A stretch of 63,862 bases of DNA, counting the filler. It is 5 parts of 5 records of this genome, joined end to end, with 100 filler letters (N's around TTAATTAATTAA, not from the genome) between each part and the next. Parts side by side here need not be neighbours in the genome. Positions count along the whole stretch, not along the records: positions 57,718 to 63,862 come from SRR31156797_4299; 4 more parts are not named here. The stretch is one strand, 5' to 3'. Below are positions 45,731 through 63,862 of this stretch, piece by piece; positions within the stretch are counted from its first letter, which is position 1; each line of letters starts with the position of its first letter. The translations under genes and the position numbers were made by a program. Under the pieces are notes generated by a model that had not been told where the DNA came from, did no database searches, and worked only from the letters and a program-made list of their open reading frames with translations.

Positions 45731-45741
45731 AAAATAAATAA

Positions 45742-45769: not shown

Positions 45770-45869
45770 NNNNNNNNNNNNNNNNNNNNNNNNNNNNNNN
45801 NNNNNNNNNNNNNTTAATTAATTAANNNNNNNNNNNNNNNNNNNNNNNNNNNNNNNNNNNNNNNNNNNN
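45770..45869. other. Artificial contig spacer
   Basis: N44-TTAATTAATTAA-N44. Confidence 0.99.
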
Positions 45870-45870
45870 G

Positions 45871-46545: not shown

Positions 46546-46560
46546 AAGTGGAGGTTTCAC

Positions 46561-47237: not shown

Positions 47238-47245
47238 TTGTATTA

Positions 47246-48786: not shown

Positions 48787-48803
48787 TAAAAGGCAGAATT
48801 ATA

Positions 48804-49622
48804 TTGTTTAATGGTATATCAGAACAGGCCAATAAACTTGTTGCTCTTACTCAAAAACAGCATTTAAAAAACTCTAGAACAAAAATCATAACAATAAGTT
48901 CAGGAAAAGGTGGAGTGGGAAAGTCTACGCTCACATCAAATATAGCCTATTTGTTGTCTCAACGTGGAAAAAAAGTTGCGATTTTTGATGCTGATATGGG
49001 ATTAGCAAATTTACAAGTTATGTTTGATGTAAAACCTGAATATACGATATATGATTACCTTGATGGAAAGTGTAACTTAAAAAATATTTTTACGGTTACA
49101 GATATTCCAAATGTGACACTTATTGCTGGAAAAAGTGGATACCAATATACAAACTCACATCAAAATATGCTTTTCTCTTCCCTTATTCATCAAATAGTTA
49201 GTTTAGAACAATTTGATATATTACTAATTGATACAGGAGCTGGGCTTCATGGAAATGTACAAGAGTTTCTTTCTCTATCAAATAATATTGTAGCAGTCAC
49301 AACTACTGACCCTAGTGCATTAACTGATGTTTATGCCCTTTTAAAGATGATAAGTTTGAAAAAAGAGAGACTATTTTTATGCTTCAATTATACTTCAAAA
49401 TATGAAACAGGTGAAACAATTACTAAATCTTTGAAAAATTTAGCACTAAAAAATAAACTTAATAGAAAATTTATGGTACAATATATAGGAAACGTGAGTG
49501 AAGAAAAAGGTATTACAATAAGCGGAAGACTCAGAAAGCTTTTTTCTAAAGAGTTAAAGAATGAAAAAGCAACACATGAGCTTCGAATTATTGTAAATAA
49601 CTTACTTGAACTGATCGATTAA
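48804..49622 (+). CDS. flhG: MinD-like ATPase FlhG/FleN
   Basis: SGKGGVGKS, DADMGLAN, IDTGAG; follows flhF. Confidence 0.92.
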   Translation: MFNGISEQANKLVALTQKQHLKNSRTKIITISSGKGGVGKSTLTSNIAYLLSQRGKKVAIFDADMGLANLQVMFDVKPEYTIYDYLDGKCNLKNIFTVTDIPNVTLIAGKSGYQYTNSHQNMLFSSLIHQIVSLEQFDILLIDTGAGLHGNVQEFLSLSNNIVAVTTTDPSALTDVYALLKMISLKKERLFLCFNYTSKYETGETITKSLKNLALKNKLNRKFMVQYIGNVSEEKGITISGRLRKLFSKELKNEKATHELRIIVNNLLELID

Positions 49623-49630
49623 GGGGAATA

Positions 49631-49963
49631 ATGAAAACAGAAGAGTTTTCTAAAAAACTATTACAAAGTAAAATATTTGATACATATGTTGCGACAGTTT
49701 TTTTTGGAACAACAATCTATTTTGTTCTAAACGCTTCTTATTATGCACCAGTAGAGATGATATTCTGGATCGTATTTGTGACAATACTTTTTAAAGGTCT
49801 TGCAAATATGATGTTAGCAATGCTTATCTCTTTATTTAATCTTTCAAATGAACAAGATAGAGCAGATTTTGAAAAGTCTGCCGATGAGTTAGATGCTTTG
49901 GTCAATGACTTGTCAATACGTGAAGCTGCAGTTCAAAGTGCAAAAACAAATGAAAATAAATAA
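49631..49963 (+). CDS. Hypothetical two-TM membrane protein
   Basis: 110 aa, two hydrophobic helices and a coiled C-terminus, within the flagellar operon. Confidence 0.7.
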   Translation: MKTEEFSKKLLQSKIFDTYVATVFFGTTIYFVLNASYYAPVEMIFWIVFVTILFKGLANMMLAMLISLFNLSNEQDRADFEKSADELDALVNDLSIREAAVQSAKTNENK

Positions 49964-49972
49964 GGATAGATT

Positions 49973-50296
49973 ATGAGATTAGCAGAAGTAGCAAACCCTT
50001 TTAATAATACAACAAAAGGTATTCTCCCTGGAAATCTTGAAGCTAATATATCTCAAGATATGAATAGACAAAAAGGTGACTCTTTTTCAGAAGTTTTAGA
50101 AAAATCACTTTTAGAAGTAAACAATGACCAAGTAGATGCATACAACGCAATGAATGATATAGCGACAGGAAAAGTTGAAAATCTTCAAGAAGCTGTACAA
50201 AAGATAGAAGAAGCAGAACTTAGTTTAAAACTTGGACTTGAAGTGAAAAACAAAGCGTTAGGTGCATACAAACAAGTTATGTCAATGCAAATATAA
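49973..50296 (+). CDS. fliE: Flagellar hook-basal body protein FliE
   Basis: SFSEVL...EVKNKALGAYKQVMSMQI. Confidence 0.92.
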   Translation: MRLAEVANPFNNTTKGILPGNLEANISQDMNRQKGDSFSEVLEKSLLEVNNDQVDAYNAMNDIATGKVENLQEAVQKIEEAELSLKLGLEVKNKALGAYKQVMSMQI

Positions 50297-50317
50297 AACT
50301 GTTAAGAGGATAAAAAG

Positions 50318-50767
50318 ATGGGTTTTTTTGATGGATATGATATAGCAACCTCTGGGATGAGTGCCCAAAGAGAACGGATCAATGTTGTGAGTTCAAATAT
50401 AGCTAATGCTCAAACTACCCATTCAAAAGATGGTGGTCCTTATAGAAAACAAAATGTTGTATTTGAAGAGGTCTTATTAGAAGCATCTCAAAAGCTTGAT
50501 AAAGATGGGCAGTATAAAGAAGATCCTTTAGCTATTAAAGGGGTTAATGTTCGAGAGATAACAGAATCGAATAAAGAGCCAATTTTAAAATATGATCCTA
50601 CCCATCCAGATGCAAATGAAAATGGTTATGTGGCATATCCTGATATCAACCCAGTTATTGAAATGGTTGATCTAATTGAGGCGATGAGATCGTACGAAGC
50701 AAATGTTTCAGCTTTTAAAACTCAAAAAAATATGGATACACAAACACTAGATATTATTAAAATGTAA
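50318..50767 (+). CDS. flgC: Flagellar basal-body rod protein FlgC
   Basis: SGMSAQR, NIANAQTT, GPYRKQ, YDPTHPDA, EMVDLI. Confidence 0.96.
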   Translation: MGFFDGYDIATSGMSAQRERINVVSSNIANAQTTHSKDGGPYRKQNVVFEEVLLEASQKLDKDGQYKEDPLAIKGVNVREITESNKEPILKYDPTHPDANENGYVAYPDINPVIEMVDLIEAMRSYEANVSAFKTQKNMDTQTLDIIKM

Positions 50768-50777
50768 GGGGTGACCC

Positions 50778-52985
50778 ATGTCTATTGAATTATTACCAAA
50801 TGTAGAAAAACAAGATGGAGCAAAGAAAAAAAGTGCATCATCGTCTTCAACACAAACTACAAAAAAAGAAGGAATGTCTCTTTTTGATTCTCTTTTAAAA
50901 GATGCAAAAAGTGATGTGCCTAGTCCTACAAGTAAGACTAATAGTGTAAAAAAAACTGTAAATACTGAAAAAACAGAAGGTGTAAAAGCTCAAGTAACTA
51001 AAACCACACAATCAAGTGAAATAAAAAATGCAACTATTGATAAAAATGAAGTGAAACAGCTTGCAGATGAATTAGTTGAGATAGTTGTAGAAAAAGCAAA
51101 AACACTTAAAGACAAATCAAAGCTTTTAGAAGATGAATCTAAAGTGAAAGAAAAAGTTGTTGCTTTAAAGCAGAATGTAGAAGAGAATGTAAAAACAAAA
51201 ACAGGCGAGATTAAAGATTCGTTAGAAGAGATTAAAAAAAGTCTTCAAAATATTAAAAACAAAACAAATTCTACTGAAAAAGATGAAGTAGTAGAAAAAA
51301 AAGAAGCTTCTAAAACTTCTGAGTCAATAGAAAAAAAAGAAATAATAAATAAACAAAATGAACCTGTTGAAGAAAAGTCAAAAACATTAAAAACTGATAC
51401 ACTAAAAGAAGTTCAGCAAAATGATGAAAATAACTCAATAGAAAATGTTAAGAAAAACATCACTCAAAAAACTACGCAGATAAAAGAATCGGTTGAAAAT
51501 ATCAAAAAAAATATGTCTACAATAGAAACAGCTGGAGATGAAAAAACAACTGCAGAAAAAACAACTTTAAAAACATCTGAAAAAATTACTGAAGAAAAAA
51601 ATGTACAAACAATCAAAATAAAAGTAAATGAAAAAGCAAATGAAATAAATAAAGCAGCGCAAGAGATAGAAACAAAAGTTGCAAAGCTTCAACCTGAAGA
51701 TGGAAAAACTACAGTAGGAAAAACACAAGCTGGTGAAGAAGAGATAAAAGAATCAAAAGCAGTTGCAAGTGAAATAAAAACTCAAACAGATAAAAAAGAG
51801 ATCGATGGAGAAAAAACAGAAGTATTAGTAGATAAAACTATACAAAAAAACACTCATCAACTAATAGAAAATAATGATGTTATAGAAGATAATGAAACAT
51901 TAAAAACACAAATAGAACAAAAAGCAGATCAGATAAAAGGTGCTGTTGAAGAGATAGAAAAAACAGTATCAAAAGTAAATTTTGTTTCTACTGAAGAGAT
52001 AGTAAAGAGCATTCAAGAGTTGAAAAAAGAGTTACAAACACCAAAAATTCAGGTTAATACTCCAACAGATAATAGAAATGATAAGAGCCTTTCTTCAAAA
52101 GATGCTAAAAACACTCTTATGGCAAATGGATTTTTAAATGATCAAGAAACTATCAAAGAACAAACCTCTTTACATCAAGTATCAAATGCAAAGAAAAATA
52201 TAGAAGATAAAAAAAGTGTAGTTTCTATAAAACAAAGTGCTGAGATGCTTGATTTAAATCCAGATGAAATTTCTATTGAAAATATGGGATCAAAAGGGGA
52301 AACAAAAGCAGAATTGTTTGCAAAAAACAATACTGAATTTAACCAAAGTTTTTTCCAACAAAAATCTTTAAATAAAATGATCATTGATAATGAAACATAT
52401 GCAAAAGAGAGTGTTTCTAAAGAAGTGGTTTCTAAAGCGCAAACAGAATCTATGAGTAACTCTCCTGTTAGTGATGCAGCTAAAGCTACTGCAAAAGAAG
52501 CTACAGTTACTTTAAATGTTCCTCAAAATGTGGTTGAAACAATACAAAGTAAGATTATCGGTGCACAACAAAAGATGGGAAGTTTTATGAGTGATGTAGC
52601 TAGAAATATGTATCTTAATTATAAACCACCTTTTACAGCATTTAGAATGAGTTTAAATCCAGCAAATCTTGGATCTATTTCCGTTATGATGAGAGCAAGT
52701 AAAGCAGATAATAGTATAACAGTAAGTATGAATATGAATAATAGTAATACTATGGAGGCTTTTGCTGACAATAAGGTTGCGTTACAAAATGCATTGCAAA
52801 AACAATTGGGTGAGGGATCAAATGTTTCACTGAACTTTGGTATGCAAAATGACAATACAAATAGTTCTGATAATTTTTCAGAAAACAATTCTGAAAATTC
52901 AAAACAAAATAGTTCAAAGAATGAAAATATTGTAACACATATAGAAGAGGTAGAAAACGAGACTGAAGACTCAAACTATATGTAA
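50778..52985 (+). CDS. fliK: Flagellar hook-length control protein FliK
   Basis: Long low-complexity N-terminus, C-terminal LNPANLGSISV domain. Confidence 0.8.
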   Translation: MSIELLPNVEKQDGAKKKSASSSSTQTTKKEGMSLFDSLLKDAKSDVPSPTSKTNSVKKTVNTEKTEGVKAQVTKTTQSSEIKNATIDKNEVKQLADELVEIVVEKAKTLKDKSKLLEDESKVKEKVVALKQNVEENVKTKTGEIKDSLEEIKKSLQNIKNKTNSTEKDEVVEKKEASKTSESIEKKEIINKQNEPVEEKSKTLKTDTLKEVQQNDENNSIENVKKNITQKTTQIKESVENIKKNMSTIETAGDEKTTAEKTTLKTSEKITEEKNVQTIKIKVNEKANEINKAAQEIETKVAKLQPEDGKTTVGKTQAGEEEIKESKAVASEIKTQTDKKEIDGEKTEVLVDKTIQKNTHQLIENNDVIEDNETLKTQIEQKADQIKGAVEEIEKTVSKVNFVSTEEIVKSIQELKKELQTPKIQVNTPTDNRNDKSLSSKDAKNTLMANGFLNDQETIKEQTSLHQVSNAKKNIEDKKSVVSIKQSAEMLDLNPDEISIENMGSKGETKAELFAKNNTEFNQSFFQQKSLNKMIIDNETYAKESVSKEVVSKAQTESMSNSPVSDAAKATAKEATVTLNVPQNVVETIQSKIIGAQQKMGSFMSDVARNMYLNYKPPFTAFRMSLNPANLGSISVMMRASKADNSITVSMNMNNSNTMEAFADNKVALQNALQKQLGEGSNVSLNFGMQNDNTNSSDNFSENNSENSKQNSSKNENIVTHIEEVENETEDSNYM

Positions 52986-52994
52986 GGATAATAT

Positions 52995-53750
52995 TTGCAA
53001 GAACTTATATCATTAATTGATCAGCCAACAGTTCTTGCCTTTTTACTCCTTTTAGCAAGAATTCTAAGTTTTATGGCTTTTATGCCTATTATTGGTGAAA
53101 AAACGGTTAATCCAACTATTAGAATTGCAGCATCTTTTTATATTACTATTTTTTTATACCCTTTAATAAATTATGATACTAGTGTTGTTAATACAGAAAA
53201 CTTTTTATTGGCACTTATTAGTGAAATTACTCTAGGGTTAGTTGCTTCATTTTTAGTTCAAATTGTCTTTTCAGCAGTTCAAATTATTGGAGATCTTGTA
53301 GAGTATGCAACTGCTTTATCAATGGCAACTATGTTTGATCCTGCAACTGGTACACAGCAAGGTTTAATTAGTAGATTACTGTATTTAATAGTACTGGTAG
53401 TGTATTTTGAAACAGGAATGTATGAGATCACATTTTATATTTTATCTCAAAGTTTTAGTTCCATATCTTTAGGAACTTTTGACCTTTTTAGTTATAATGG
53501 AATTTTATATGCAATAAAAGAGATTAATCGAATGTTCGAATTTGCTTTTGCTTTTGCTTTTCCTCTTTTTTTTATAGGGTTTATTCTTGACCTTTATTAT
53601 GGATATGGAACAAAATCAATGCCAGCATTTTCACCTTTTATTATAACATTTCAAATGAAGTTTGCTTTGGTATTTATTTTTATGATGCTAGGAATGGAAG
53701 TTTTTATTAGTGGATTTACAAATTATTTTATTGGAAAACTTGAAGGATAA
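52995..53750 (+). CDS. fliR: Flagellar export protein FliR
   Basis: Polytopic membrane protein with FDPATG motif, precedes flhB. Confidence 0.9.
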   Translation: MQELISLIDQPTVLAFLLLLARILSFMAFMPIIGEKTVNPTIRIAASFYITIFLYPLINYDTSVVNTENFLLALISEITLGLVASFLVQIVFSAVQIIGDLVEYATALSMATMFDPATGTQQGLISRLLYLIVLVVYFETGMYEITFYILSQSFSSISLGTFDLFSYNGILYAIKEINRMFEFAFAFAFPLFFIGFILDLYYGYGTKSMPAFSPFIITFQMKFALVFIFMMLGMEVFISGFTNYFIGKLEG

Positions 53751-53755
53751 GTTTT

Positions 53756-54799
53756 ATGGCTGATGAACAAGAAAAAACAGAAGAACCCACCTCCAAAAAG
53801 ATAGACGATGCCAAGAAAGAGGGAAATGTCCCTAAATCTGCTGAAGTATCAGGTGCTGCTATTTTATTTTTTGCCTCTATATATCTTTTATTTTTTGCAG
53901 ATATGATGTATGAATCTATTGAAGCAATGATGTCTTATAGCTATTCATATATAGGACAAGAGATGAGTCCTAAACTGTTTTTTACAATAGCATCAACAAT
54001 CTTTTGGTCAATACTTTATAATCTTCTTCCTTTATTTTTTGTGATCTTTCTTTTAGCAATTATATTCAATGTAATGCAGTTTGGTTTTGTTTTAACACCT
54101 TTAAAACTTGAATTAACAAAGATAGACCCCATAAGTGGATTTAAAAATGTTTTTAGTATGAAAAAAGCATTAGAAGCATTAAAGCTTATGGCAAAGTTAA
54201 CAATCATTTTTATAGTGATGGTAATTTTATTAGCTATAGTATGGGATGCCATATTAGCTATGATGGATAAAGAAGTAAAAGCTTCTTTAGAATCAATGAT
54301 TCAGCTTATAATTTATTTTTTACTAACGATTCTTTTAATAGTAATAATATTTGCACTGATAGATTTTTTCTTTGTAAGATTTTATTACTTTAAACAATTA
54401 CGTATGTCCAAACAAGAGATTAAAGATGAACATAAACAAATGGAAGGAGATCCTATAGTCAAAAGTAGAATTCGACAAATCCAGATGAAAATGTCACGAG
54501 AGCGGATGATGGCAGATGTTCCAGATGCAGATGTGGTTATTACAAACCCTACTCATTATGCCGTTGCACTTACGTATGATAAAGAAAAAAGCGATGCTCC
54601 TCTTGTAGTAGCAAAAGGGATTAATTTTTTAGCTCTAAAAATCAAAGAGATTGCTATGGAAAGTAAAGTTCCAATTATTGAAGATCCTGCACTTGCAAGA
54701 GCTTTATATGAACAAGTTGAAGTGGAACAGCAAATTCCACAAAGTATGTATAAAGCTATTGCAGAAATCTTTACTTTTGTGTATAATCTCAATAAATAG
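53756..54799 (+). CDS. flhB: Flagellar export protein FlhB
   Basis: EKTEEPT and NPTH autocleavage motif. Confidence 0.96.
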   Translation: MADEQEKTEEPTSKKIDDAKKEGNVPKSAEVSGAAILFFASIYLLFFADMMYESIEAMMSYSYSYIGQEMSPKLFFTIASTIFWSILYNLLPLFFVIFLLAIIFNVMQFGFVLTPLKLELTKIDPISGFKNVFSMKKALEALKLMAKLTIIFIVMVILLAIVWDAILAMMDKEVKASLESMIQLIIYFLLTILLIVIIFALIDFFFVRFYYFKQLRMSKQEIKDEHKQMEGDPIVKSRIRQIQMKMSRERMMADVPDADVVITNPTHYAVALTYDKEKSDAPLVVAKGINFLALKIKEIAMESKVPIIEDPALARALYEQVEVEQQIPQSMYKAIAEIFTFVYNLNK

Positions 54800-54818
54800 T
54801 TTGGAGTAAGTTTTAAAT

Positions 54819-56837
54819 ATGAAGTATTTTTTAGTTTTTTTTATTATCTTAAGTAGTCTTTATGGGAAAAAAGATTTTTATTATAATTTTGTTAATCCTG
54901 ATATGTCACAAATTACTCAAGTTGAAAAAAGAAAGATAGTTGGAGCATCAGATAAACTAAAAGAGATTAGAAGATATGTGCAAGAGGGACAGCTTGATGT
55001 GGCTCTTAAACATATTAAGATGTTTGAAAATAGTAATGATGTAGATCTTTTAAATTCAGCTGCTACATTGCTTCATAGTGAAATTTTATATAAGTTAAAT
55101 ACAGTACCAAGAGCGAGTGAAGCAAATATACTTTTAGAAAAAGCAATAAATACATCAGTTATAGATCAAGAAGATCTTTTAGAAGCATATAGATTATTGG
55201 TTTTAATAAAAATCAAGATTAATAAAATGGATGAAGCATTGTATTATGCCAATGCAATTAGTGAGAGTTTTGATGATCCTCTTTCCAAAGTTTATGGGAA
55301 AGTTGCTTTATCTCAAATATATATGAAAACAAGGGATTATAATAAAGCGATCAAGATCTTACGTCAAGAGCTTGTCAATACTACAAGTTTAGAGGTTGCT
55401 ACCATTATAGCTGATGAATTATATGATGCCTATATTTTAAATAAAGAGGATCAAAAGGCATATGATCTTGTAGAAAAAGTACTTAATAGAAATATAGATT
55501 ATTATGCCAATGATAGTTATAAAGCACTAAATAAAGTTGATAAACTAGTCGATGCTGGGATGCCAGAATTTGCCATTGATATTTTAAATAAACTTATAGA
55601 AAATTCAAGTGAATCAAAAAGTATTGATAATTTTAAATTTAAACTTGCAAATACATATATGGAGATTGCAGGATATGATAAAAAATATTTAGAAGAAGCA
55701 AAAAAAATTTATGAAGAGCTTATCCAATTAAAATATAATAATCCTTTTAAGAAAAATGCAAAAATGTATCTTGATGAGATCATTATGAGAGAAGGAAAAT
55801 TTGATCCTGCAATGATGGCATCGAAATATAGTGATTCTGATACTATGCAGTATAAAGCAATGATGCAAGAGTTGATTAATTCAATAGAAGATGAAAAATA
55901 TGAACAGATCCTTCGTATGAAAAAAATTTATTATGGGATCCCAGAATCTATTATCAAAAGATTTGGTCACGAGAGTATGGATAAGATCTATAATATGGTT
56001 AATTCAAAAATGGTTGAGTACTATTTAAATACGAATCAATGTAAACAACTTACTATGGTAATAAAAGATATATCAGATGAAGCTTTACTCCTTTTATTAA
56101 AAGATGATCCAGCAATAAACAAACTTTTTGGATGTTTAATGGAAGTACCTCAAGAGCAAGCTTTTAGGACTATAAAAAATGTATATTCAAAAGTACAAGA
56201 TGCAAAAGTAAATTTTTTATTAGAAAAAGTTGCTATTGTTTTAAGAAAATATGATGAAGCTTTTAATTATTCACAAAAACTAGATCTATTTAGTGAACCA
56301 GATATCCTTTCGCAAGAGTTCTTATACCGTTTTTTAATTTATAGAAACCTTGATAATTCTCAGGCAATGCAGCGATTTTTTGCATATGCAAGAGCAAATC
56401 CTGAATTTATAATCAACAATCAGAATAATCCACTTATTATTGATTTTTATCATACTTATTATCTGTATCTATTAAAAGAGAAAGAGGAAGAAGAAGCTGC
56501 TCAGATACTAAAAAAACTCTACGAAACACAAAATAAAATGAGAGCAAGAGTCTATTCCCCATTTGTAGAGATAGAATTAGCACGATATGCAAAATTGAAT
56601 GATAACTATGATCTTGCGCTTGATTATTTAAAGCATGGATTGCAGATCAAAAGATATAAAGATGGAAGAAGTATAGATAGAAAAATATCAGATGATGATA
56701 AATCAAGGATATATTATGAGATGGCAAAAATCTATGAATTTCAAAAAAGAGATAACAGGTATAAAGATGCTGTGAGACGATGTAATCGATTAAAAGATAC
56801 AACAAGTTATTATAAAAAAATGTGTGAAAAGATGTAG
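54819..56837 (+). CDS. Secreted TPR-repeat protein (possible PflA/PflB-like motor scaffold)
   Basis: Signal peptide, repeated helical TPR-like segments, flagellar context. Confidence 0.65.
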   Translation: MKYFLVFFIILSSLYGKKDFYYNFVNPDMSQITQVEKRKIVGASDKLKEIRRYVQEGQLDVALKHIKMFENSNDVDLLNSAATLLHSEILYKLNTVPRASEANILLEKAINTSVIDQEDLLEAYRLLVLIKIKINKMDEALYYANAISESFDDPLSKVYGKVALSQIYMKTRDYNKAIKILRQELVNTTSLEVATIIADELYDAYILNKEDQKAYDLVEKVLNRNIDYYANDSYKALNKVDKLVDAGMPEFAIDILNKLIENSSESKSIDNFKFKLANTYMEIAGYDKKYLEEAKKIYEELIQLKYNNPFKKNAKMYLDEIIMREGKFDPAMMASKYSDSDTMQYKAMMQELINSIEDEKYEQILRMKKIYYGIPESIIKRFGHESMDKIYNMVNSKMVEYYLNTNQCKQLTMVIKDISDEALLLLLKDDPAINKLFGCLMEVPQEQAFRTIKNVYSKVQDAKVNFLLEKVAIVLRKYDEAFNYSQKLDLFSEPDILSQEFLYRFLIYRNLDNSQAMQRFFAYARANPEFIINNQNNPLIIDFYHTYYLYLLKEKEEEEAAQILKKLYETQNKMRARVYSPFVEIELARYAKLNDNYDLALDYLKHGLQIKRYKDGRSIDRKISDDDKSRIYYEMAKIYEFQKRDNRYKDAVRRCNRLKDTTSYYKKMCEKM

Positions 56838-56840
56838 AGT

Positions 56841-57617
56841 ATGAATCATATAGACATAGATTCTTTATTGAATAATATAAATTCTAATAATCTTTTTATT
56901 CCTTTTGGAAGAATTACTAATATTAGTAGTTCTAGTATTATTGCTTCAGGACTAGAAGTGGCTATTGGTGATATTATTAGAATTGAAGCAGAAGAGGCAA
57001 ATTTAAAAGTATTAGGGATGGTAGCATCTGTTGAAAGGACACAATTTACGGTTGTCCCATTTTCATTTATTGATGGATTTAAAGTTGGTGATAAAGTTTA
57101 TTTACAAAAAGAGGGATTAAGCATAGCATGTGGTTATGGCCTTTTAGGTCGTGTAGTCAATGCTTTAGGTGAACCGATTGATAAAGGTGGAAAGATCACT
57201 AATATTGAAGGATACTCTTCAATCAATAAAGAGACAATCCCACCACTTGATCGTGGAATTATAAATCAAAGATTTTCTACTGGAGTGAAAGCCATAGATT
57301 CTATGCTTACATGTGGAAAAGGACAAAAAGTAGGGATCTTTGCAGGGTCTGGGGTTGGTAAATCAACTTTAATGGGAATGATCGTAAAAGGGTGTGAGGC
57401 TCAGATCAAAGTGATTGCGTTAGTTGGAGAGCGGGGAAGAGAGATTCCAGAATTTATTCATTATAATCTAGGAGATAATTTAGAAAATACAGTTATTGTA
57501 ACTGCAACAAGTGATGAGTCTTCATTAATGAGAAAATATGCTGCGTTTAGTGCAATGGCAATAGCTGAGTTTTTTAGAGATAAAGGGCATGATGTTCTTT
57601 TAATGATGGATTCTGTA
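56841..57617 (+). CDS. fliI: Flagellar export ATPase FliI, 3' truncated
   Basis: AGSGVGKSTL, GERGRE, LLMMDSV. Confidence 0.93.
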
Positions 57618-57717
57618 NNNNNNNNNNNNNNNNNNNNNNNNNNNNNNNNNNNNNNNNNNNNTTAATTAATTAANNNNNNNNNNNNNNNNNNNNNNNNNNN
57701 NNNNNNNNNNNNNNNNN
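57618..57717. other. Artificial contig spacer
   Basis: N44-TTAATTAATTAA-N44. Confidence 0.99.
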
Positions 57718-57718
57718 T

Positions 57719-59866
57719 ATCACGAAAACTGGCGGCAAACTAGATCAGACAAAAAATGCAGCCGTAAGTGAAGCGAAAACAGAATTAGAACCCCAAATTT
57801 TACTAGCTAAAGCAGAAATTTTTGGTGATGAAACTTTGGGAACAGTTGGGTTAAAGAAAACTGTATTTGGAGAAGATGGTAAAGGTGGAATTAATGCTTC
57901 TGTTGAAAGTTTAGTAGCAACTGTAACAGATGATGATAAAGGTCTTACTGCCAAATTAGACACTGTTGAATTTGCGATTGGTTTAGATGAAGGTGTTTCA
58001 ACTAAAATCAAGTCTCTTGAATATGATATGAATAATGATAAAGGTCAATTAAGAACAGCTTCGCAAGCAATAACTAAAGATTATATTCGAAATACTGTTG
58101 GTGTTGTGGCAATGGACTTTAATTTGGAAGAAGCAGAAATGAATGATTATGAATTCTGGGACAGTAAGTCATTTGAAATTGATGAAACAACGAAAAAATC
58201 TTGGTTTGATGGGGTATCACTTACTACAAGTTATACGATGCAGGAGTTAACAAATGAGCGTTTTCTTAGTGAAGTAAAGAGAATAGATAAGGATGCAAGT
58301 GTTACACGAAGTGCTATTGAACAAAAGGCAGATGGAATCCTAATGACTGTTTCCGAAGAAGTTAATAGAATAAACGCTGATATTAACGGAGTAAGAGGAG
58401 AAATAACAACTAGCTATAATAGTTTAATCAATCAAACTTCAAGTTCAATAGAATTATCTGTTAATGAATCAAAAGAATATGCTAAAACCTATACTGATGG
58501 TGTAAAAACTACACTTGATGGAGAGATAGGTAACAAAACAACTTTAACTGAAGCAGTAGACGAAGTAAAAAGTAAAATTTCTATAGATCAAGATGGAATA
58601 GATTTACTTGGAAAAAAGATAACGCTTGGAGATGAAATAACTATTGTTGACAATGTTATGAAAGTGGTGAACTTGACTGCAGATCATATCGCATCTAATT
58701 CAATAACGGTAGAAAAATTATCTATCCCAAGTGAATCAGGGGATATTTCACTTGAAAACAATGAATTAAGAGTTAAGAAAATTTCATCGGATACTGAATT
58801 AAGTATTCAAGCAAAGAATTTTAGTTTGGATGGAGAAAATGTTGTTAAGAGTTTATTTTCAATGTGTATAGATAACTCCGATGGTACTTTTACTAATGTA
58901 GTAGAACTTTCAGATGGTTCTTTTGTTTATTCATATTATTATCGAGGAAAAGGAACAGGTCTCTATATTTATAAAGTTGATAGTGACTTTCAAGAAAAAG
59001 AAATACTTGGTAAAATTGAAGTTAATAATTCTGCTGAAGAATTGTTTTGCCATCATTTAGCTATTTTTAATGGCAAAATATATATATTTACGAGCAAAAG
59101 AAATGTAGATAAGAGCAGAGAAGCAAATATTTATTCAATTTCTGAATCAGCACCAAATAATACACAAGCAACTTTTGTTTTTCAGTGTGAAAATAAAATA
59201 TATAATGGTAATATAACTTTTGGACATGGAAAGATGAATTCAGTAGTTAAAAATAACACGTTATTCTTTACTAGACAAAGTGATACTTTAGGAAAGCATG
59301 TTTTACAAAGTTTAAATACAACAAATCAAGTTTCTGGGAATCTTTTTACTACAACTGATGGTGGATTAATAACTAGTATTAATAGTTTAATTCCTTACAG
59401 TCCTTCTGAGAATAAAATTGCTTTTACCACAGATGAAATAATGTATAATCGTATATATACTTATGATATTTTAAATAATGTAATAAAATTATTAATTAGA
59501 ACTGACGAGAACAAATTGTGTCTAACAGAATTTAAAGGTGAGGTTTATCTTATCCAAGGTACGTCAATTTTAAAAGGATCATTTGAAGGAGGAAGTTGGG
59601 AGATAGTAGAAGAAGAAATTCCAACTTATGGAAAAGTAAAATTTTCTTGTAGTGGTAATGAGATGATATACTATACAGGAAAGCTCTATTTTTTAAGAAG
59701 TTTTGACGGAAAGAACTTTGAAAAAGTGTACACGAGTGAATACGAAATAGAGAATATAGATGTTTTAAATAGTCGAACAATTTATTCAGCCAAAAACCAA
59801 TTGTTTGAAGATTATGATTTAAAAGTTGCAACAGCACTAACTTTATCAATATCTTATAAATCATAA
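57719..59866 (+). CDS. Phage tail/host-specificity protein (gp58-like segment), 5' truncated
   Basis: Frame open from the contig edge; SAIEQKADGI / SLINQTSSSI / SIDQDGIDLLGKKITL repeats; beta-rich C-terminal domain. Confidence 0.7.
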   Translation: MTKTGGKLDQTKNAAVSEAKTELEPQILLAKAEIFGDETLGTVGLKKTVFGEDGKGGINASVESLVATVTDDDKGLTAKLDTVEFAIGLDEGVSTKIKSLEYDMNNDKGQLRTASQAITKDYIRNTVGVVAMDFNLEEAEMNDYEFWDSKSFEIDETTKKSWFDGVSLTTSYTMQELTNERFLSEVKRIDKDASVTRSAIEQKADGILMTVSEEVNRINADINGVRGEITTSYNSLINQTSSSIELSVNESKEYAKTYTDGVKTTLDGEIGNKTTLTEAVDEVKSKISIDQDGIDLLGKKITLGDEITIVDNVMKVVNLTADHIASNSITVEKLSIPSESGDISLENNELRVKKISSDTELSIQAKNFSLDGENVVKSLFSMCIDNSDGTFTNVVELSDGSFVYSYYYRGKGTGLYIYKVDSDFQEKEILGKIEVNNSAEELFCHHLAIFNGKIYIFTSKRNVDKSREANIYSISESAPNNTQATFVFQCENKIYNGNITFGHGKMNSVVKNNTLFFTRQSDTLGKHVLQSLNTTNQVSGNLFTTTDGGLITSINSLIPYSPSENKIAFTTDEIMYNRIYTYDILNNVIKLLIRTDENKLCLTEFKGEVYLIQGTSILKGSFEGGSWEIVEEEIPTYGKVKFSCSGNEMIYYTGKLYFLRSFDGKNFEKVYTSEYEIENIDVLNSRTIYSAKNQLFEDYDLKVATALTLSISYKS

Positions 59867-59915
59867 ATATAATAGAATGCACTTAACAACTAAATAACCA
59901 AACAAATGACGGGAC

Positions 59916-59954
59916 AAAAAAATACCCTGTTCTCCTATACAAGAGAAAGGGTAT
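59916..59954 (-). terminator. Minus-strand intrinsic terminator
   Basis: ATACCCTTTCTC...GAGAACAGGGTAT followed by T tract on the minus strand. Confidence 0.7.
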
Positions 59955-60006
59955 ACAAATAGTTAACATTTTCAATATAAACTTGAAGATTTAATCAATC
60001 TAACTC

Positions 60007-60035
60007 TTGCTTTTACAGCACCTATATGCTAAAAT
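60007..60035 (+). promoter_or_regulatory. Sigma-70 promoter (extended -10)
   Basis: TTGCTT-N17-TAAAAT with TG at -15/-14. Confidence 0.5.
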
Positions 60036-60208
60036 TTAATTAGGAAGTTTATTCCAAAACGATGTCAATTAGACAGAAACGGAAGCAATTCCTACACAAT
60101 TGCTTATGCATATATATCGTAGTTGTAAAAGCGAGAGAACAAGTTTGACAGAACAAGTCCTCTCTAATCATCCTGATAGGTGCGCCAACACCTCGCATGA
60201 CTGATACA

Positions 60209-60237
60209 ATTATATCACATAGAAAATGTTTTGAAAA
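60209..60237 (-). promoter_or_regulatory. Antisense sigma-70 promoter (extended -10)
   Basis: TTTTCA-N17-TATAAT with TGa before the -10, on the minus strand. Confidence 0.55.
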
Positions 60238-60441
60238 GTATTAAACTACTAGTCAAAACTCAGCTTTTGTAATACAAAATTTCATGTGATAATTCTCGAA
60301 ACGAATGATATTATATCATTCTGGTTTTGTGATACGCGAAAGCTGTCATGAAAACTAGAGAATAGAAATGTAAACTGATGATCTAATCACAATTTTGTGT
60401 GTAGATTTATTCAGTTAACTTTTGATTGTAAATAACGTTGT

Positions 60442-60487
60442 ACGGGTTCGTCATCTATAGGAGATGGTGAACCCGTTGTTTTTTTTG
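60442..60487 (+). terminator. Intrinsic terminator
   Basis: 15-bp stem ACGGGTTCGTCATCT/AGATGGTGAACCCGT (2 G-U) plus T tract. Confidence 0.85.
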
Positions 60488-60511
60488 GCAAAATTTAGGA
60501 TAAACTTCCGC

Positions 60512-60644
60512 AACCTCATCCGCCCTAACGGGCACCTTCTCCCTTGTTGGTATTTTCTTTCGAAAAGATCCTGCGGGTAAACCTAATCTTAGGAGAAGGA
60601 AAATTCAAAAGATTCCCTCTACTAATTTAGGAGAGGGTGAGGTT
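60512..60644. repeat. REP/MITE-like palindromic element
   Basis: CCTCATCCGCCCTAACGGGCACCTTCTCC...GGAGAAGG and CCCTCT...AGAGGG hairpins enclosed by AACCTCA/TGAGGTT. Confidence 0.55.
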
Positions 60645-60681
60645 AGTTGTAATTCGAAAATTATTCACAAGGAGGGGTCAA

Positions 60682-61032
60682 ATGCTTAGATTTACACTTG
60701 AGAAAGAACAAGCGAAAAAATTAGGAAAAAGAATATCTGAAAGGAGAATGAGGTTTCAGTTATCTCTGGAGGATTTAGAGGAGAGAACAGGTCTTGAGAA
60801 ATATTTTATCGATCAGCTCGAACAGGGGAGAGCAGCAATAGTTGATCCAAAAGCACTGATATTACTGGGGAAGAGTCTGAGAATAAACTATATAGAGCTA
60901 TACACAATAGTTGGATTTATCGATAACCATTCAATGATCAGATATATGATAGGGGATAATGATTTTTACGAGGAGATGTGTGAAGAATTGAAAAGTGAAA
61001 ATTATGTGAGCAGTATGAACTTGGAAGATTAG
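60682..61032 (+). CDS. XRE-family HTH transcriptional regulator
   Basis: LGKRISERR...LSLEDLEERTGLEKYFIDQLEQG; GGAGG RBS before MLRFT. Confidence 0.85.
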   Translation: MLRFTLEKEQAKKLGKRISERRMRFQLSLEDLEERTGLEKYFIDQLEQGRAAIVDPKALILLGKSLRINYIELYTIVGFIDNHSMIRYMIGDNDFYEEMCEELKSENYVSSMNLED

Positions 61033-61094
61033 AAAAATTTATATAGCTGCTGATAAAAACAAAAATCGTGTCTATCTGTGTGAATTCGTAGTTT

Positions 61095-61290
61095 TAGAGG
61101 TTTCAAAATATAACTTTAACATGATGTATGTCAATAGACAGGTGAATACCGTCTTGATAGTAAATCATCTGTAAACTCTAGCAGAATAAAATGCTAAGAG
61201 AATGAAAAATTAAATAGAGATAAGCGAAAGAGCTTGCATTAAGCGTCCTTATCCATGTCAAAAAATTGGCTGGATATGGGCGTTTTTTTT
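61095..61290 (+). ncRNA. Second candidate structured RNA
   Basis: Three hairpins followed by a strong terminator, no ORF. Confidence 0.4.
61242..61290 (+). terminator. Intrinsic terminator
   Basis: GCGTCCTTATCCA...TGGATATGGGCGT plus T tract. Confidence 0.8.
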
Positions 61291-61294
61291 ATTA

Positions 61295-61433
61295 CCCCCC
61301 CTCCTAACCCTAATTAATATTTTATAATTCAAAAATATTATGCGGGTGCTACCATCCCCCTGCTAAAGGGAGGGACAAAATCTTTTTAAAACAAAAAAAG
61401 TCTCCCCCTATCAGGTTGGAGGTTGGAGGGGGG
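61295..61433. repeat. REP/MITE-like element with C/G-rich terminal inverted repeats
   Basis: CCCCCCTCCTAACC ... GGTTGGAGGGGGG with internal hairpins. Confidence 0.55.
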
Positions 61434-61459
61434 CTAAAACTTAAGGAGGAATAAAAAAT

Positions 61460-63217
61460 ATGGGTACAATAGCAGATAATTTTAATGCAAATTTTGAATT
61501 TAAAAGAGTGGATGGGAAAAAATATCCTGATCCATTTATTGAGAAATATGAAACTACAAAATTTGGTGGAGGGGCACTTCATGAGTTAATTGATGAAACT
61601 AAGTTAAGAACGCATGAAGCGTTGGAGCAAATAGAAAATGGAGAACAAACAAGCATTAATGCAGATAAGGTAGATGGTTATGAAGGGTTAGAGTTAATGG
61701 ATGGAATCCACTCAAGATATGTTGATTTTATTGTTGAAGGGGATGCAGATACTTATTATCCAGTAGGAATAAGTGGAGGAGCTCATTATGGATTTCATAG
61801 GTATTCAATTAGTAGACCTTATAGTTGGCAGGCTCCAGAAACATGGAATAATTCTACTACTCATAAAGGTGGATTAACATTTACTTGGGAATGGTCAGCG
61901 GATAGTGGTTGGGGAGGTAATGATAAAAGTATTAGAATTATAGAGTTTAGTCAAACCTATAGTAGTATGGTTGCAGGTTTACAGTTGGCAGTATCGCATG
62001 GACCTTTAGTTATTTGGCTGAGAGGTGGAGGAGCTCAATATAGATTACACTCGACAAGAGGAAAAAATGCAATAGTTAATATTTATTTAGATGGCTTTAC
62101 AGCTGCTGATAAAACTACATTTTTACCAAGAACAACTCTTGATAGTGTTGATGGCGAAATTAACGCAAGATATCCAGTTAGAGGAAATGGTGGTCTTTAT
62201 GACAGTAACAATAAAGTTTGGACTGAAGGTAACGATGGTGCAGGAAGTGGGTTGGATGCTGATAAGCTAGATGGATTTCATGAAACTTCATTTAGTAGAA
62301 ATAATCGAGGTTCAATTCAGGGAGCAGATATTTCTAATGTTAATATCATGAAAAATTTAAAATCTGGAAACTATTGTGTGATTTATTCAGGTTATACAAA
62401 AATGCTTGTAGTTCAAGATTTGGGAGCGGGTTCATGTAGAAAACACTTTACATTATATCACTATGATTCAGGAAGTATTGAAGTTAACACGCTTGTTGAT
62501 GGAATATCTCTAAATGATTGGGTTCCATTAGCAACAGGGGGAAGGAATATAGATTTTATTGTAGATAATCTTTATGCAGTAGGAACGGCAGCAAGAAAAG
62601 CTTCTGTAGTTTATGCAGGAACTGGAACAATTAATACGTCTGATGCTAGAGAAAAAACAGAAATATCTAAATTAACAGAAAATGAATTAAGTGCATCAAA
62701 ACAACTTCTTGATGAGATTGGAACATATAAATGGCTATATTCTGTAGGAAATAAAGGAGAAGAAGCTAGAATTCACATTGGATTAACAGTTCAAAGAGCA
62801 ATAGAAATATTTGAAGAAAATGACTTAGATGCATTTAAATATGGCTTGATTTGTCACGATAAATGGAATGAAGAAGTAATTGAACATCCTGCTGAGCTTG
62901 AAAGAGTAGAAAAAGTTCCTGTGATGATTGAAGAAGAATACGAGGAAATAGACTTAGTCTTTGAAGATGGTAAATATTTTGAGGAAAAAGTAATAAAAAT
63001 TAGAGAAGTGCAGAAAATGGAGTCAATTGATATTTACGATAGAGGAAACAACGTGATTAGAAGCAAAAATATACCTGTTTATGAGGAAAAAATAATTCCT
63101 GCTAAAGAAGCATGGACAGAAGTGATTCAAGAAGCTGGTGATAGATATGGGTTTAGGTATGATCAATTAAATCAATTCCTTATTGCAGGTTTAAACGCAA
63201 AACTTAATGAAGAATAA
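61460..63217 (+). CDS. Phage tail fibre with C-terminal intramolecular chaperone (peptidase S74) domain
   Basis: NADKVDG and GSGLDADKLDG fibre repeats; TSDAREKT cleavage motif, HIGLTVQ, RYDQL. Confidence 0.85.
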   Translation: MGTIADNFNANFEFKRVDGKKYPDPFIEKYETTKFGGGALHELIDETKLRTHEALEQIENGEQTSINADKVDGYEGLELMDGIHSRYVDFIVEGDADTYYPVGISGGAHYGFHRYSISRPYSWQAPETWNNSTTHKGGLTFTWEWSADSGWGGNDKSIRIIEFSQTYSSMVAGLQLAVSHGPLVIWLRGGGAQYRLHSTRGKNAIVNIYLDGFTAADKTTFLPRTTLDSVDGEINARYPVRGNGGLYDSNNKVWTEGNDGAGSGLDADKLDGFHETSFSRNNRGSIQGADISNVNIMKNLKSGNYCVIYSGYTKMLVVQDLGAGSCRKHFTLYHYDSGSIEVNTLVDGISLNDWVPLATGGRNIDFIVDNLYAVGTAARKASVVYAGTGTINTSDAREKTEISKLTENELSASKQLLDEIGTYKWLYSVGNKGEEARIHIGLTVQRAIEIFEENDLDAFKYGLICHDKWNEEVIEHPAELERVEKVPVMIEEEYEEIDLVFEDGKYFEEKVIKIREVQKMESIDIYDRGNNVIRSKNIPVYEEKIIPAKEAWTEVIQEAGDRYGFRYDQLNQFLIAGLNAKLNEE

Positions 63218-63230
63218 GGGAGGTCCTAAC

Positions 63231-63746
63231 ATGTCTAATTACTACTATGGTTTAACAAGTGAGTTAAGCGGAATTGAAGCAATTCAAACTGCTTGCTCCC
63301 TGCTTCCCAGTCCTGAAGCACGATACATATTAATGCTTGCAACAGCTAAGGCGGAATCTGATTTCGGCAGATTCCGTGATACCACTCATAAATCTGCCGG
63401 AGAGGGATGGTTTCAGTTTGATCCGGGCAATGTGAGAGATGTAAGGGATAGGATGAACAGGAAATATAGGGATATAGTTGCAGATACATATGATAAATTT
63501 GATCTGGATATAGAGGATGTAGATTATACGGTGCTTAGACAAGCACCTCTTGCATCTGCTGTTATGGCAGCTTTCAAATACTGGCTTGTACCTTATGAAC
63601 TGCCAAATCCAACTCATTTTGAGGGGCTGTGGTTATATTATAAAGTCTGGTACAACAGTCGGTATGGCAAGACAACAGAGGTAAAATTCAAAAAGGCATA
63701 TAATTGGGCAATTGAAACGGCTCAGAAATATCCTTTGCGTGTTTAG
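63231..63746 (+). CDS. Lysozyme/transglycosylase-like protein, probable endolysin
   Basis: AKAESDFG (catalytic Glu-Ser) and GWFQF motifs; follows the tail fibre; GGAGG RBS. Confidence 0.6.
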   Translation: MSNYYYGLTSELSGIEAIQTACSLLPSPEARYILMLATAKAESDFGRFRDTTHKSAGEGWFQFDPGNVRDVRDRMNRKYRDIVADTYDKFDLDIEDVDYTVLRQAPLASAVMAAFKYWLVPYELPNPTHFEGLWLYYKVWYNSRYGKTTEVKFKKAYNWAIETAQKYPLRV

Positions 63747-63862
63747 AGTCAAGATCGCAACCTACGCGGTTGCATTGCGCAAACCTTACGTTTGATCGAA
63801 TTGAATTAGTTGTAAGGGTATCCCTTGTGGGTATTACTGTAAACTTAAGAAATTAATTCGTT

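What the first reader, a model, noticed from the sequence alone, without database searches (positions are those of the whole stretch)
59916..60487. Large, ornate non-coding RNA candidate inserted between phage tail genes
Seen in about 570 nt with no long ORF: a 16-bp stem (60004-60019 with 60122-60137, 2 G-U) and inner stem (60023-29/60108-14) closing a multiloop of three hairpins (60043-55, 60063-75, 60083-105); hairpins at 60178-93 and 60303-21; a long G-U-rich stem capped by GC-GAAA-GC (60321-58); a nested stem 60373-416; possible end pairing (59955-67 with 60414-30); and a terminator. Known: (pro)phages and plasmids of Bacillota/Fusobacteriota carry large structured RNAs of unknown function (ROOL, GOLLD, ARRPOF). 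CCAAAACGAUG...CAGAAACGG recalls ROOL from memory only, unverified. Inference: a divergent member or a new class, carried as a moron with an XRE regulator.
Basis: partly seen in the sequence, partly recalled or inferred. Interest (0 to 1): 0.78.

Follow-up and report, generated by a model that had tools for sequence, protein, structure and literature searches.

The report
Large unclassified structured RNA in phage
A roughly 600-base stretch next to a phage tail-fibre gene folds into an unusually elaborate RNA ending in a transcription terminator. It matches no described RNA family and recurs with few changes in a few sediment and wetland samples, so it is probably a new large phage RNA of unknown role.

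Summary
Window 59885-60486 (+) has no conserved ORF and folds far better than shuffles: z -9.1 overall; two halves z -7.6 and -6.0, 0 of 200 shuffles each; minus strand about -3.6. It ends in the only intrinsic terminator of its 6.1-kb contig piece.

Rfam 15 gives no hit at gathering scores and only terminator-driven noise at E up to 10, so it is not ROOL, GOLLD, ARRPOF, OLE or an intron.

The window is several contigs joined by N spacers. The RNA's true neighbours are an orphan ORF upstream, an XRE-like gene and a tail-fibre gene downstream; the flagellar genes lie on another contig.

Relatives 91-99% alike occur in three other studies. One is an RNA library whose contig stops at the terminator. 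Their changes fall mostly in unpaired positions, and indels rule out coding. No double compensatory change was seen.

No homologue could be fetched from any collection, so covariation is untested.

Best reading: a real plus-strand structured RNA of an undescribed class, carried with the XRE gene. Whether it acts by itself or as the XRE gene's leader stays open.

The parts
59885..60486 (+). Predicted structured RNA, about 602 nt: 5' domain, 3' domain and terminator
   Evidence: Fold -169.3 kcal/mol with 36 helices. z -9.13. No Rfam family. Relatives in runs X2-X5 lie on 59885-59924 and 59984-60546.
59908..60164 (+). 5' domain. It is closed by the long-range helix 59911-15/60157-61. It holds hairpins 59922-54 and 59962-95 and the 16-bp stem 60004-19/60122-37 with its inner multi-helix part.
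   Evidence: z -7.55, 0 of 200 shuffles. In X2 and X4 the changes 60159 C>U and 60161 U>C both keep the closing helix paired. Its 5' strand is unchanged in X4.
60056..60082 (+). Variable patch: linker and hairpin loop inside the 5' domain.
   Evidence: X2 and X5 share 6 substitutions here, and there are indels of +1, -4 and -1. All but one of these changes are unpaired in the fold.
60166..60205 (+). Conserved hairpin with apical stem 60178-82/60189-93
   Evidence: Pair probability 0.99. No change is listed in X2 or X4 between 60178 and 60225/60240.
60206..60429 (+). 3' domain, closed by 60206-12/60423-29. It has three arms: 60213-91, 60292-363 (with the GAAA-capped stem) and 60370-419.
   Evidence: 60166-60441 has z -6.00, 0 of 200 shuffles. 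Helices are listed.
60272..60412 (+). Middle segment that is replaced in one relative
   Evidence: The X4 contig carries 138 unlike letters in place of these 141, and both sides stay about 94% alike (table 5).
60442..60486 (+). Intrinsic terminator: 15-bp stem, 7 G-C pairs, 5-nt loop, then a T run
   Evidence: It is the only terminator-like site in 57718-63862. The RNA-library contig of X4 ends at 60484, while DNA contigs of X2 and X3 run on to 60541 and 60546.
60487..60681 (+). Spacer or leader between the terminator and the XRE start. It holds a 16-nt complement (60494-509) to 60043-58 of the RNA.
   Evidence: Conserved at 98-99% as far as 60541/60546 in X2 and X3. It folds no better than shuffles, z -1.30. 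Complementarity.
60682..61032 (+). XRE-like helix-turn-helix gene, 116 aa, with an AAGGAGG ribosome-binding site upstream
   Evidence: Pfam HTH_19 is below cut-off (20.6 against 30.2 bits). Atlas look-alikes are XRE-family at 0.94. PHROG regulator families match at E about 1e-3. It has no relative but itself among 5.8 billion proteins. X4 holds a 90% relative, with 7 of 10 changed codons synonymous.
57718..59866 (+). Upstream ORF, cut by the contig start (715 aa seen). An orphan, possibly a structural protein.
   Evidence: No Pfam, PHROG or PADLOC family. No tblastn hit in phages. Atlas leads are only 0.76, to viral hypothetical proteins.
61460..63217 (+). Tail-fibre gene with a Peptidase_S74 chaperone domain
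   Evidence: 18 PHROG families matched, 11 labelled tail and 7 of unknown function. Pfam PF13884. 581 phage records by tblastn.

Best explanation
Window 59885-60486 (+) is a gene for a discrete, highly structured non-coding RNA of about 600 nt. It belongs to no described family.

**Shown**
- An exceptional, strand-asymmetric fold made of two multi-helix domains.
- A strong intrinsic terminator at its 3' end.
- No conserved reading frame.
- Near-identical to 91%-alike copies in three other studies, one of them an RNA library.

**Inferred**
- Transcription starts shortly after the upstream ORF. A perfect TATAAT lies at 59868-73, and homology in X4 begins at 59885.
- Most transcripts end at the terminator, giving a stable RNA that acts as an RNA product in its own right. 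It would be a scaffold, decoy or assembly in the manner of other large phage-borne RNAs.
- A minority of transcripts read through and supply the XRE-like regulator gene, which has no convincing promoter of its own.
- The RNA and the XRE gene travel together as one cassette beside a phage tail-fibre gene.

**My odds**
- Real plus-strand structured RNA: about 0.75.
- Stand-alone product rather than only a leader: about 0.45.
For: **Fold**
- z -9.13; -7.95 without the terminator, 60 shuffles.
- Domains z -7.55 and -6.00, 0 of 200 shuffles each.
- Minus strand -3.53 and -3.71.
- Among 28 background windows, the coding ones lie between z -2.3 and +2.8.

**Terminator**
- The only terminator of the 6.1-kb piece sits at 60442-86.

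**Relatives**
- X2 covers 59984-60225 with 21 changes and 60388-60541 with 2.
- X3 covers 60356-60546 with 4 changes.
- X4, an RNA library contig of 415 nt at depth 16.1, covers 60083-60271 and 60413-60484 and ends at 60484.
- X5 covers 60011-60146 and 60431-60485.

**Where the changes fall**
- 15 of the 26 substituted positions lie in the 96 unpaired positions and 11 in the 192 paired ones (one-sided Fisher p 0.0066).
- 6 of 11 changes at paired sites keep the pair on the plus strand. Only 2 of 11 would on the minus strand.
- Indels of +1, +1, -4, -1 and +1 exclude coding.

**No known family**
- No Rfam family; no tRNA or tmRNA.
Against: - No changes on both sides of a pair were seen. The relatives are too close, so the structure rests on thermodynamics and one-sided changes.
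- 5 of 11 changes at paired sites break the predicted pair.
- The substitutions cluster in two patches, so the Fisher test overstates independence.
- Several contigs have depth under 5, where single differences may be errors.
- The minus strand also folds better than shuffles (z about -3.6), as a DNA palindrome cluster would.
- No promoter passed the scan upstream of the RNA.
- Contigs cannot show strand, ends or level of an RNA. The stop of the X4 contig at the terminator comes from one study and is only a weak hint.
- Conservation runs on past the terminator to 60546, which fits a longer functional unit.
- No homologue was found in the viral, metagenome, genome, phage or plasmid collections.
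Confidence: 0.5

Rival explanations
1. The RNA is mainly a very long cis-acting leader of the XRE gene. Its terminator is a conditional attenuator, and the structured domains sense a signal or a factor. Alternative pairings decide whether RNA polymerase reads through and whether the XRE start site is open. Two candidate pairings are 59931-39 with the 3' half of the terminator, and 60043-58 with 60494-509.
For: - Same strand, directly upstream, and no promoter-like site between the terminator and the XRE start except one overlapping the start codon.
- Conservation of 98-99% continues across the terminator to 60541/60546 in X2 and X3.
- X4 holds patches of both the RNA and the XRE gene.
- The 60043-58 x 60494-509 duplex is -16.2 kcal/mol, the best of all 21-nt windows of the RNA (mean -4.6, sd 2.9).
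- The 59931-44 x 60451-64 inverted repeat gives a duplex of -14.4 kcal/mol.
Against: - At about 600 nt it is, from my recollection, several times larger than known attenuators and riboswitches.
- The would-be antiterminator lies 500 nt upstream of the terminator.
- Neither alternative pairing appears in the fold or ensemble of the read-through transcript (probabilities 0.0).
- 60487-60681 folds no better than shuffles (z -1.30).
- 22 inverted-repeat pairs were found in 1.8 kb, so such complementarities are common here.
- No Rfam riboswitch or leader family matches.
Confidence: 0.25
2. The conserved unit works at the DNA level, or is a small mobile or recombining cassette. Examples are a cluster of palindromic protein-binding sites, a recombination hot spot in a mosaic tail-fibre region, or a MITE-like element. 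On this reading the RNA fold is a by-product of DNA palindromes.
For: - Both strands fold better than shuffles.
- Only 11 of 183 predicted pairs are G-U.
- In X4 the sequence before 59885 is unlike the window (table 7).
- The loose ends on the two sides of the X4 cassette share a 12-mer (table 7).
Against: - The plus strand is clearly favoured in both domains, by 2.3 to 4 z units.
- One-sided changes keep pairs on the plus strand only (6 of 11 against 2 of 11).
- There are no terminal inverted repeats spanning the unit, no second copy in the window, and no transposase, integrase or invertase in the linked 6.1 kb.
- A correctly oriented terminator ends the structure.
- Relatives are present in an RNA library.
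Confidence: 0.12
3. The region is non-functional spacer or decayed gene remnant in a recently diverged phage lineage. The fold is chance and the similarity among runs reflects only recent common descent.
For: - Only five runs in four studies share its words, one of which may be the source.
- Relatives are 91-99% alike, so conservation could simply reflect a short divergence time.
- No distant homologue was found anywhere.
Against: - 0 of 200 shuffles reach the fold energy of either domain.
- In the same runs the neighbouring tail genes attracted only 40-62-nt patches with 3 to 10 differences each.
- In X4 the middle segment has diverged beyond 80% likeness while the two flanking parts of the RNA stay about 94% alike.
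- Changes avoid paired positions.
Confidence: 0.08

Closest known systems
ROOL RNA (Rumen-Originating, Ornate, Large)
   Same: - Similar size. ROOL averages 581 nt (PMC5737381, passages read); this RNA is about 602 nt.
- Many multi-stem junctions.
- Encoded in phages and prophages, with function unknown (PMC12286853, passages read).
   Different: - No match to the Rfam model even at E up to 10.
- No tRNA genes nearby.
- The host is unknown.
- ROOL's three pseudoknots and its nanocage assembly could not be tested.
GOLLD RNA
   Same: - A large phage- or prophage-borne RNA of unknown function.
- It is built of a well-conserved part and a less conserved part (PMC12286853). Here there are conserved 5' and 3' parts and a replaceable middle.
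   Different: - No Rfam match.
- GOLLD often exceeds 800 nt and sits near tRNA islands. This RNA is about 600 nt, and no tRNA was found in the window.
Long structured leaders and attenuators that end in an intrinsic terminator upstream of a regulator gene (riboswitch-type or RNA-RNA immunity leaders such as those of phages P4 and P1; recalled, no call)
   Same: - The structured RNA is followed by a terminator and then a co-oriented regulator gene without an evident promoter of its own.
- There is internal complementarity between an upstream segment and a segment just after the terminator.
   Different: - It is several times larger than those leaders as I recall them.
- No alternative fold is predicted.
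- No Rfam leader or riboswitch matches.
Candidate structured RNAs of phages from large-scale screens (Fremin et al. 2023, PMC10690425, passages read)
   Same: Unnamed structured RNA candidates in phage intergenic regions, some with transcript evidence.
   Different: - Those candidates are 29-151 nt long. This one is about four times longer than the longest.
- None of my 5 patterns found a true copy in IMG/VR contigs.
- The paper's supplementary tables could not be read.

Membership tests
ROOL | Match to the Rfam covariance model | tested here: not met
   0 hits at gathering score on the whole window. No ROOL row at E up to 10 on 59800-60700.
ROOL | [quoted passage not shown] | tested here: inconclusive
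   The length fits (602 nt) and several junctions are predicted. Pseudoknots are not predicted by the tools used, and there is no alignment to test them.
ROOL / GOLLD | In phages or prophages, often beside tRNA genes | tested here: inconclusive
   A tail-fibre gene lies downstream. ARAGORN finds 0 tRNA genes in the window. Only 6.1 kb is physically linked.
GOLLD | Match to the Rfam covariance model | tested here: not met
   no hit.
ARRPOF, OLE, raiA, HEARO and other large Rfam RNA families | Match to the Rfam covariance model | tested here: not met
   The only rows are Yfr11 (E 0.52), L20_leader (E 0.48) and BTnc049 (E 5.3). All lie far below gathering scores and rest on the terminator hairpin.
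Group I / group II introns | Match to Rfam intron models; interruption of a gene | tested here: not met
   No hit. The upstream ORF ends with its own stop at 59866, and the next gene has its own ribosome-binding site.
tRNA / tmRNA | ARAGORN detection | tested here: not met
   0 genes.
Intrinsic (Rho-independent) terminator | G+C-rich stem-loop followed by a U run, on the strand of the transcript | tested here: met
   60442-76: 15 pairs, 7 G-C, loop of 5, then a T run on the plus strand.
Terminator/antiterminator attenuator | Mutually exclusive alternative pairing with the terminator | tested here: inconclusive
   The 59931-44 x 60451-64 inverted repeat exists and gives a duplex of -14.4 kcal/mol, but it is not predicted in the read-through fold.
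XRE-family HTH regulator (neighbouring gene) | Helix-turn-helix domain of the HTH_3/HTH_19 clan | tested here: inconclusive
   Pfam HTH_19 scores 20.6 bits, below the 30.2 cut-off. Atlas look-alikes are XRE-family at 0.94. PHROG regulator families match at E about 1e-3.

The most novel reading that the evidence does not exclude
This is the founding member of a new class of large 'ornate' phage RNA. It has two conserved structured parts and an exchangeable middle domain, and it is inherited as a two-part cassette with an orphan XRE-like protein. The RNA and the protein would form a switch placed inside a phage tail-fibre module: the RNA gating, titrating or being bound by the regulator. Alternatively the RNA self-assembles, as ROOL and GOLLD do.
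Probability: 0.3. Interest if true: 0.8.

Novelty: new variant of a known kind. Interest (0 to 1): 0.62.

Why it matters
Bacterial and phage RNAs of this size and complexity are few; OLE, GOLLD, ROOL and a handful more are known. Their functions remain open even after cryo-EM showed that some form RNA-only cages (PMC12286853).

A further, unrelated class sitting in a phage tail-fibre region would be useful in two ways:
- **A new test case.** It comes with a dedicated terminator, a partner regulator gene and a replaceable middle domain. That offers a fresh way to ask what such RNAs do for phages.
- **Scans still find them.** It would show that single-sequence scans can still turn up such RNAs in rare environmental lineages that comparative pipelines miss for lack of homologues.

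Tried and rejected
**Homologue hunt, all negative or chance**
- blastn against phages and plasmids: no match.
- Five DNA patterns from conserved blocks against viral contigs:
  - 0 hits.
  - 1 locus, L001. Only 24 nt match, inside a coding frame.
  - 4 loci, L002-L005. They are one G+C-rich coding sequence sharing only the 18-mer.
- Two scans of metagenome contigs: 0 hits.
- Two scans of genome contigs: 0 hits.
- Protein-anchored searches in viral contigs with the upstream ORF, the XRE gene and the tail fibre: no relatives.
- XRE protein against 5.8 billion proteins: only itself.

**Closed or unavailable**
- No whole genome is held for the window.

**Uncovered parts of the laid stretch**
- The tail genes attracted only 40-62-nt patches (3 to 10 differences each).
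- Contig depth (16.1 for the RNA contig against 3 for the XRE contig in X4) is not a measure of expression.

**Hypotheses rejected**
- Small ORFs: 49 aa on the minus strand at 60049-60198, 34 aa on the plus strand at 60100-60204, and a 28-aa frame from the ATG at 60062. Relatives carry frame-breaking indels and lose that ATG.
- Retron, DGR, omega or bridge RNA: there is no reverse transcriptase, TnpB/IscB or recombinase in the linked 6.1 kb, and no repeat between the region and the neighbouring genes.
- Sequestering of the XRE ribosome-binding site by 60505-09: seen when 60487-60700 is folded but not in the longer transcript, so dropped.

**Technical**
- A first background script gave no answer. 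A lighter one covered 28 windows only.

Full report
**What the window is**

The 63,862-base window is not one molecule. Four spacers of the form N44-TTAATTAATTAA-N44 lie at 28837-28936, 37114-37213, 45770-45869 and 57618-57717. They join at least five contigs of differing G+C content: about 42% in the first, 27-35% in the others.

The finding lies on the last piece, 57718-63862. The flagellar export genes just upstream in the window belong to another contig and are not neighbours of the RNA. These are FliE, rod protein, FliK-like, FliR, FlhB and a FliI fragment.

The true neighbours are:
- **An ORF cut by the contig start (57718-59866, 715 aa).** It has no Pfam, PHROG or PADLOC family and no tblastn hit in phages.
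- **A 116-aa XRE-like gene (60682-61032).**
- **A tail-fibre gene (61460-63217).** It matches 18 PHROG families (11 labelled tail, 7 of unknown function), has a Peptidase_S74 domain, and hits 581 phage records.
- **A phrog_3108 protein (63207-63746).**

So 'next to a phage tail-fibre gene' holds. 'Between two tail genes' is unproven.

**The observation**

No ORF above 49 aa lies between 59867 and 60681. The plus strand of 59885-60486 folds to -169.3 kcal/mol in 36 helices, most with pair probability above 0.8.

- the 16-bp stem 60004-19/60122-37 with two G-U pairs
- the inner stem 60023-29/60108-14
- hairpins 60178-93 and 60303-21
- the GAAA-capped arm 60322-57
- the nested stem 60373-416
- the terminator 60442-76 with its U run

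The terminator is the only terminator-like site in the whole 6.1-kb piece.

The fold is far beyond chance:

| Stretch | Plus strand z | Minus strand z | Shuffles |
|---|---|---|---|
| 59867-60490 | -9.13 | -6.18 | 20 |
| 59885-60441 (no terminator) | -7.95 | -5.65 | 60 |
| 59885-60165 (5' half) | -7.55 | -3.53 | 200 |
| 60166-60441 (3' half) | -6.00 | -3.71 | 200 |

No shuffle folded as well as the native sequence in any of these tests. Of the 28 background 300-nt windows, the coding ones lie between z -2.3 and +2.8.

- The three-hairpin multiloop is 12 kcal/mol less stable than a nested arrangement.
- The suggested end pairing is replaced by 59886-90/60437-41 and by a long-range helix 59911-15/60157-61 that closes the 5' domain.

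**Known families**

Rfam 15 finds nothing at gathering scores on either strand of the whole window. At E up to 10 on 59800-60700 it lists only Yfr11, L20_leader and BTnc049. Their E-values are 0.5-5 and all are carried by the terminator hairpin.

ROOL, GOLLD, ARRPOF, OLE, raiA, HEARO and the intron models therefore fail the one membership test available. ARAGORN finds no tRNA or tmRNA.

**Relatives**

No homologue could be fetched. blastn against phages and plasmids gave nothing. Nine pattern scans gave only chance matches, which were checked and discarded. Three protein-anchored scans found no relatives. The XRE-like protein has no relative but itself among 5.8 billion proteins.

The index of sequencing runs found five holders in four studies:
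- X1, which holds all the words and may be the source
- X2 and X3, sediment DNA runs from one study
- X4, a wetland metatranscriptome
- X5, a further sediment run

Laying the contigs of X2-X5 on the 6.1-kb piece at 80% likeness or more gave:

| Run | Stretch covered | Differences |
|---|---|---|
| X2 | 59984-60225 | 21 changes, 2 gaps |
| X2 | 60388-60541 | 2 changes |
| X3 | 60356-60546 | 4 changes |
| X5 | 60011-60146 | 12 changes, 5 gaps |
| X5 | 60431-60485 | 2 changes |
| X4 (RNA) | 59885-59924 | none; preceded by 111 unlike letters |
| X4 (RNA) | 60083-60271 | 12 changes (415-nt contig, depth 16.1) |
| X4 (RNA) | 60272-60412 | replaced by 138 unlike letters (same contig) |
| X4 (RNA) | 60413-60484 | 4 changes; the contig ends at 60484 (same contig) |
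| X4 (RNA) | 60648-60798 (XRE gene) | 15 changes |
| X4 (RNA) | 61118-61183 | 7 changes |

The DNA contigs of X2 and X3 run through the point where the RNA contig stops. Contigs cannot show strand or level.

**What the variants say**

Of 26 substituted positions in 59984-60271, 15 fall in the 96 unpaired positions of the fold and 11 in the 192 paired ones (one-sided Fisher p 0.0066). They cluster in two patches, so this overstates independence.

Of the 11 changes at paired sites:
- Six keep the pair, all through one-sided wobble changes: 60019, 60045, 60128, 60130, 60159 and 60161.
- Five break it: 60018, 60052, 60082 (part of a one-base register slip), and 60146 and 60151 (both in a weak hairpin).

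Read on the minus strand, only 2 of 11 would keep a pair.

The best single case is the closing helix 59911-15/60157-61. Both X2 and X4 carry 60159 C>U and 60161 U>C, which turn G-C into G-U and G-U into G-C. In X4 the 5' strand is seen unchanged.

No change on both sides of a pair was observed, so true covariation is untested.

Indels of +1, +1, -4, -1 and +1 inside 60057-60149 rule out every small ORF there. They also remove the ATG of a 28-aa frame.

By contrast the XRE gene behaves as a coding gene. Seven of the 10 changed codons in X4 are synonymous and the other three are conservative.

**How it most likely works**

*Shown:*
- a strand-asymmetric, two-domain fold
- a strong terminator
- no coding capacity
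- recurrence in three other studies, one of them an RNA library

*Inferred:*
- Transcription starts a few bases after a perfect TATAAT at 59868-73. It has a poor -35 and did not pass the promoter scan.
- Most transcripts end at 60484-86, giving a stable RNA of about 600 nt that acts as a product in its own right.
- Leak-through supplies the XRE gene, for which no separate promoter is evident.

I put about 0.75 on a real plus-strand structured RNA. I put about 0.45 on a stand-alone product, against 0.25 for a pure cis leader or attenuator.

The leader reading has support:
- Conservation continues past the terminator to 60546.
- There is a 16-nt complement between 60043-58 and 60494-509 (-16.2 kcal/mol, the best of all windows).
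- There is complementarity between 59931-44 and the 3' half of the terminator.

Against the leader reading:
- These pairings have zero probability in the read-through fold.
- The spacer 60487-60681 is not unusually structured (z -1.30).
- A 600-nt attenuator would, as far as I recall, be without precedent.

A DNA-level or mobile-element reading (0.12) fits the minus strand's residual structure and the low share of G-U pairs (11 of 183). It does not fit the strand asymmetry, the oriented terminator, or the lack of terminal repeats and of any recombinase. Chance or a decayed remnant (0.08) is hard to square with 0 of 200 shuffles for each domain.

**Comparison with what is known**

It works most like the large phage-borne RNAs ROOL and GOLLD:
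- similar size
- many junctions
- a phage setting
- conserved parts alongside less conserved parts
- unknown function (passages of PMC5737381 and PMC12286853)

It is not a member of either family by the covariance-model test, and it lacks their tRNA neighbourhood.

The large screen of phage structured RNAs reports candidates of 29-151 nt only (PMC10690425, passages). Its supplements could not be read.

Three literature searches turned up no description of a large RNA next to tail-fibre and XRE genes. This is not proof of absence.

**Verdict**

This is a real and unusual feature, most likely a new class within the known kind 'large structured phage RNA'. It is rare in public data and lacks covariation support. 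Interest 0.62.

Noticed in passing
window 28837-28936, 37114-37213, 45770-45869, 57618-57717: The window is a chain of at least five contigs joined by N44-TTAATTAATTAA-N44 spacers. The first piece has about 42% G+C and T9SS-sorted PKD proteins; the others have 27-35%. Gene neighbourhood across a spacer means nothing, and the bin may be mixed.
   Followed up: yes
window 45870-57617: A separate contig carries a flagellar gene cluster: MotB/OmpA-like, a rod-binding protein, FlhF-like and FlhG/MinD-like NTPases, FliE, rod protein, FliK-like, FliR, FlhB, a 672-aa protein with only a sub-threshold repeat match, and a FliI fragment cut by the contig end.
   Followed up: partly
window 37214-45769: Another contig holds a 740-aa DUF4942 protein, a methyltransferase-like protein (40179-41489) and a 630-aa PAPS-reductase-domain protein (41976-43868). 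This may be a DNA-modification or defence island.
   Followed up: no
window 61285-61459: The leader of the tail-fibre gene has C-rich and G-rich arms (61292-61313 with 61416-61437, 22 nt) enclosing smaller hairpins. Its fold has z -2.44, with 3 of 200 shuffles as good. The XRE gene is followed by a hairpin and a T run at about 61243-61290 that the terminator scan did not list.
   Followed up: partly
window 61107-61134 (minus strand): The best sigma-70-like match of the whole 6.1-kb piece (TTGACA-16-TATATT, 11 of 12) points leftwards into the 3' end of the XRE gene. It lies inside the 61118-61183 patch that run X4 also conserves, so it may drive an antisense transcript. Promoter-like hits overall are not above shuffles (23 against 27).
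   Followed up: no
window 59885 and 61183 (loose ends of X4 contigs, table 7): In run X4 the unlike letters before 59885 and those behind 61183 share a 12-mer. This is either a direct repeat flanking the RNA+XRE cassette or an A/G-rich coincidence.
   Followed up: no
window 60133-60160, 60702-60712, 60781-60792: An 11-12-nt word (GAGAGAACAAG-like) occurs twice in tandem inside the RNA and twice inside the XRE gene. The RNA copies lie in a patch that varies among relatives, so a conserved operator is unlikely.
   Followed up: partly
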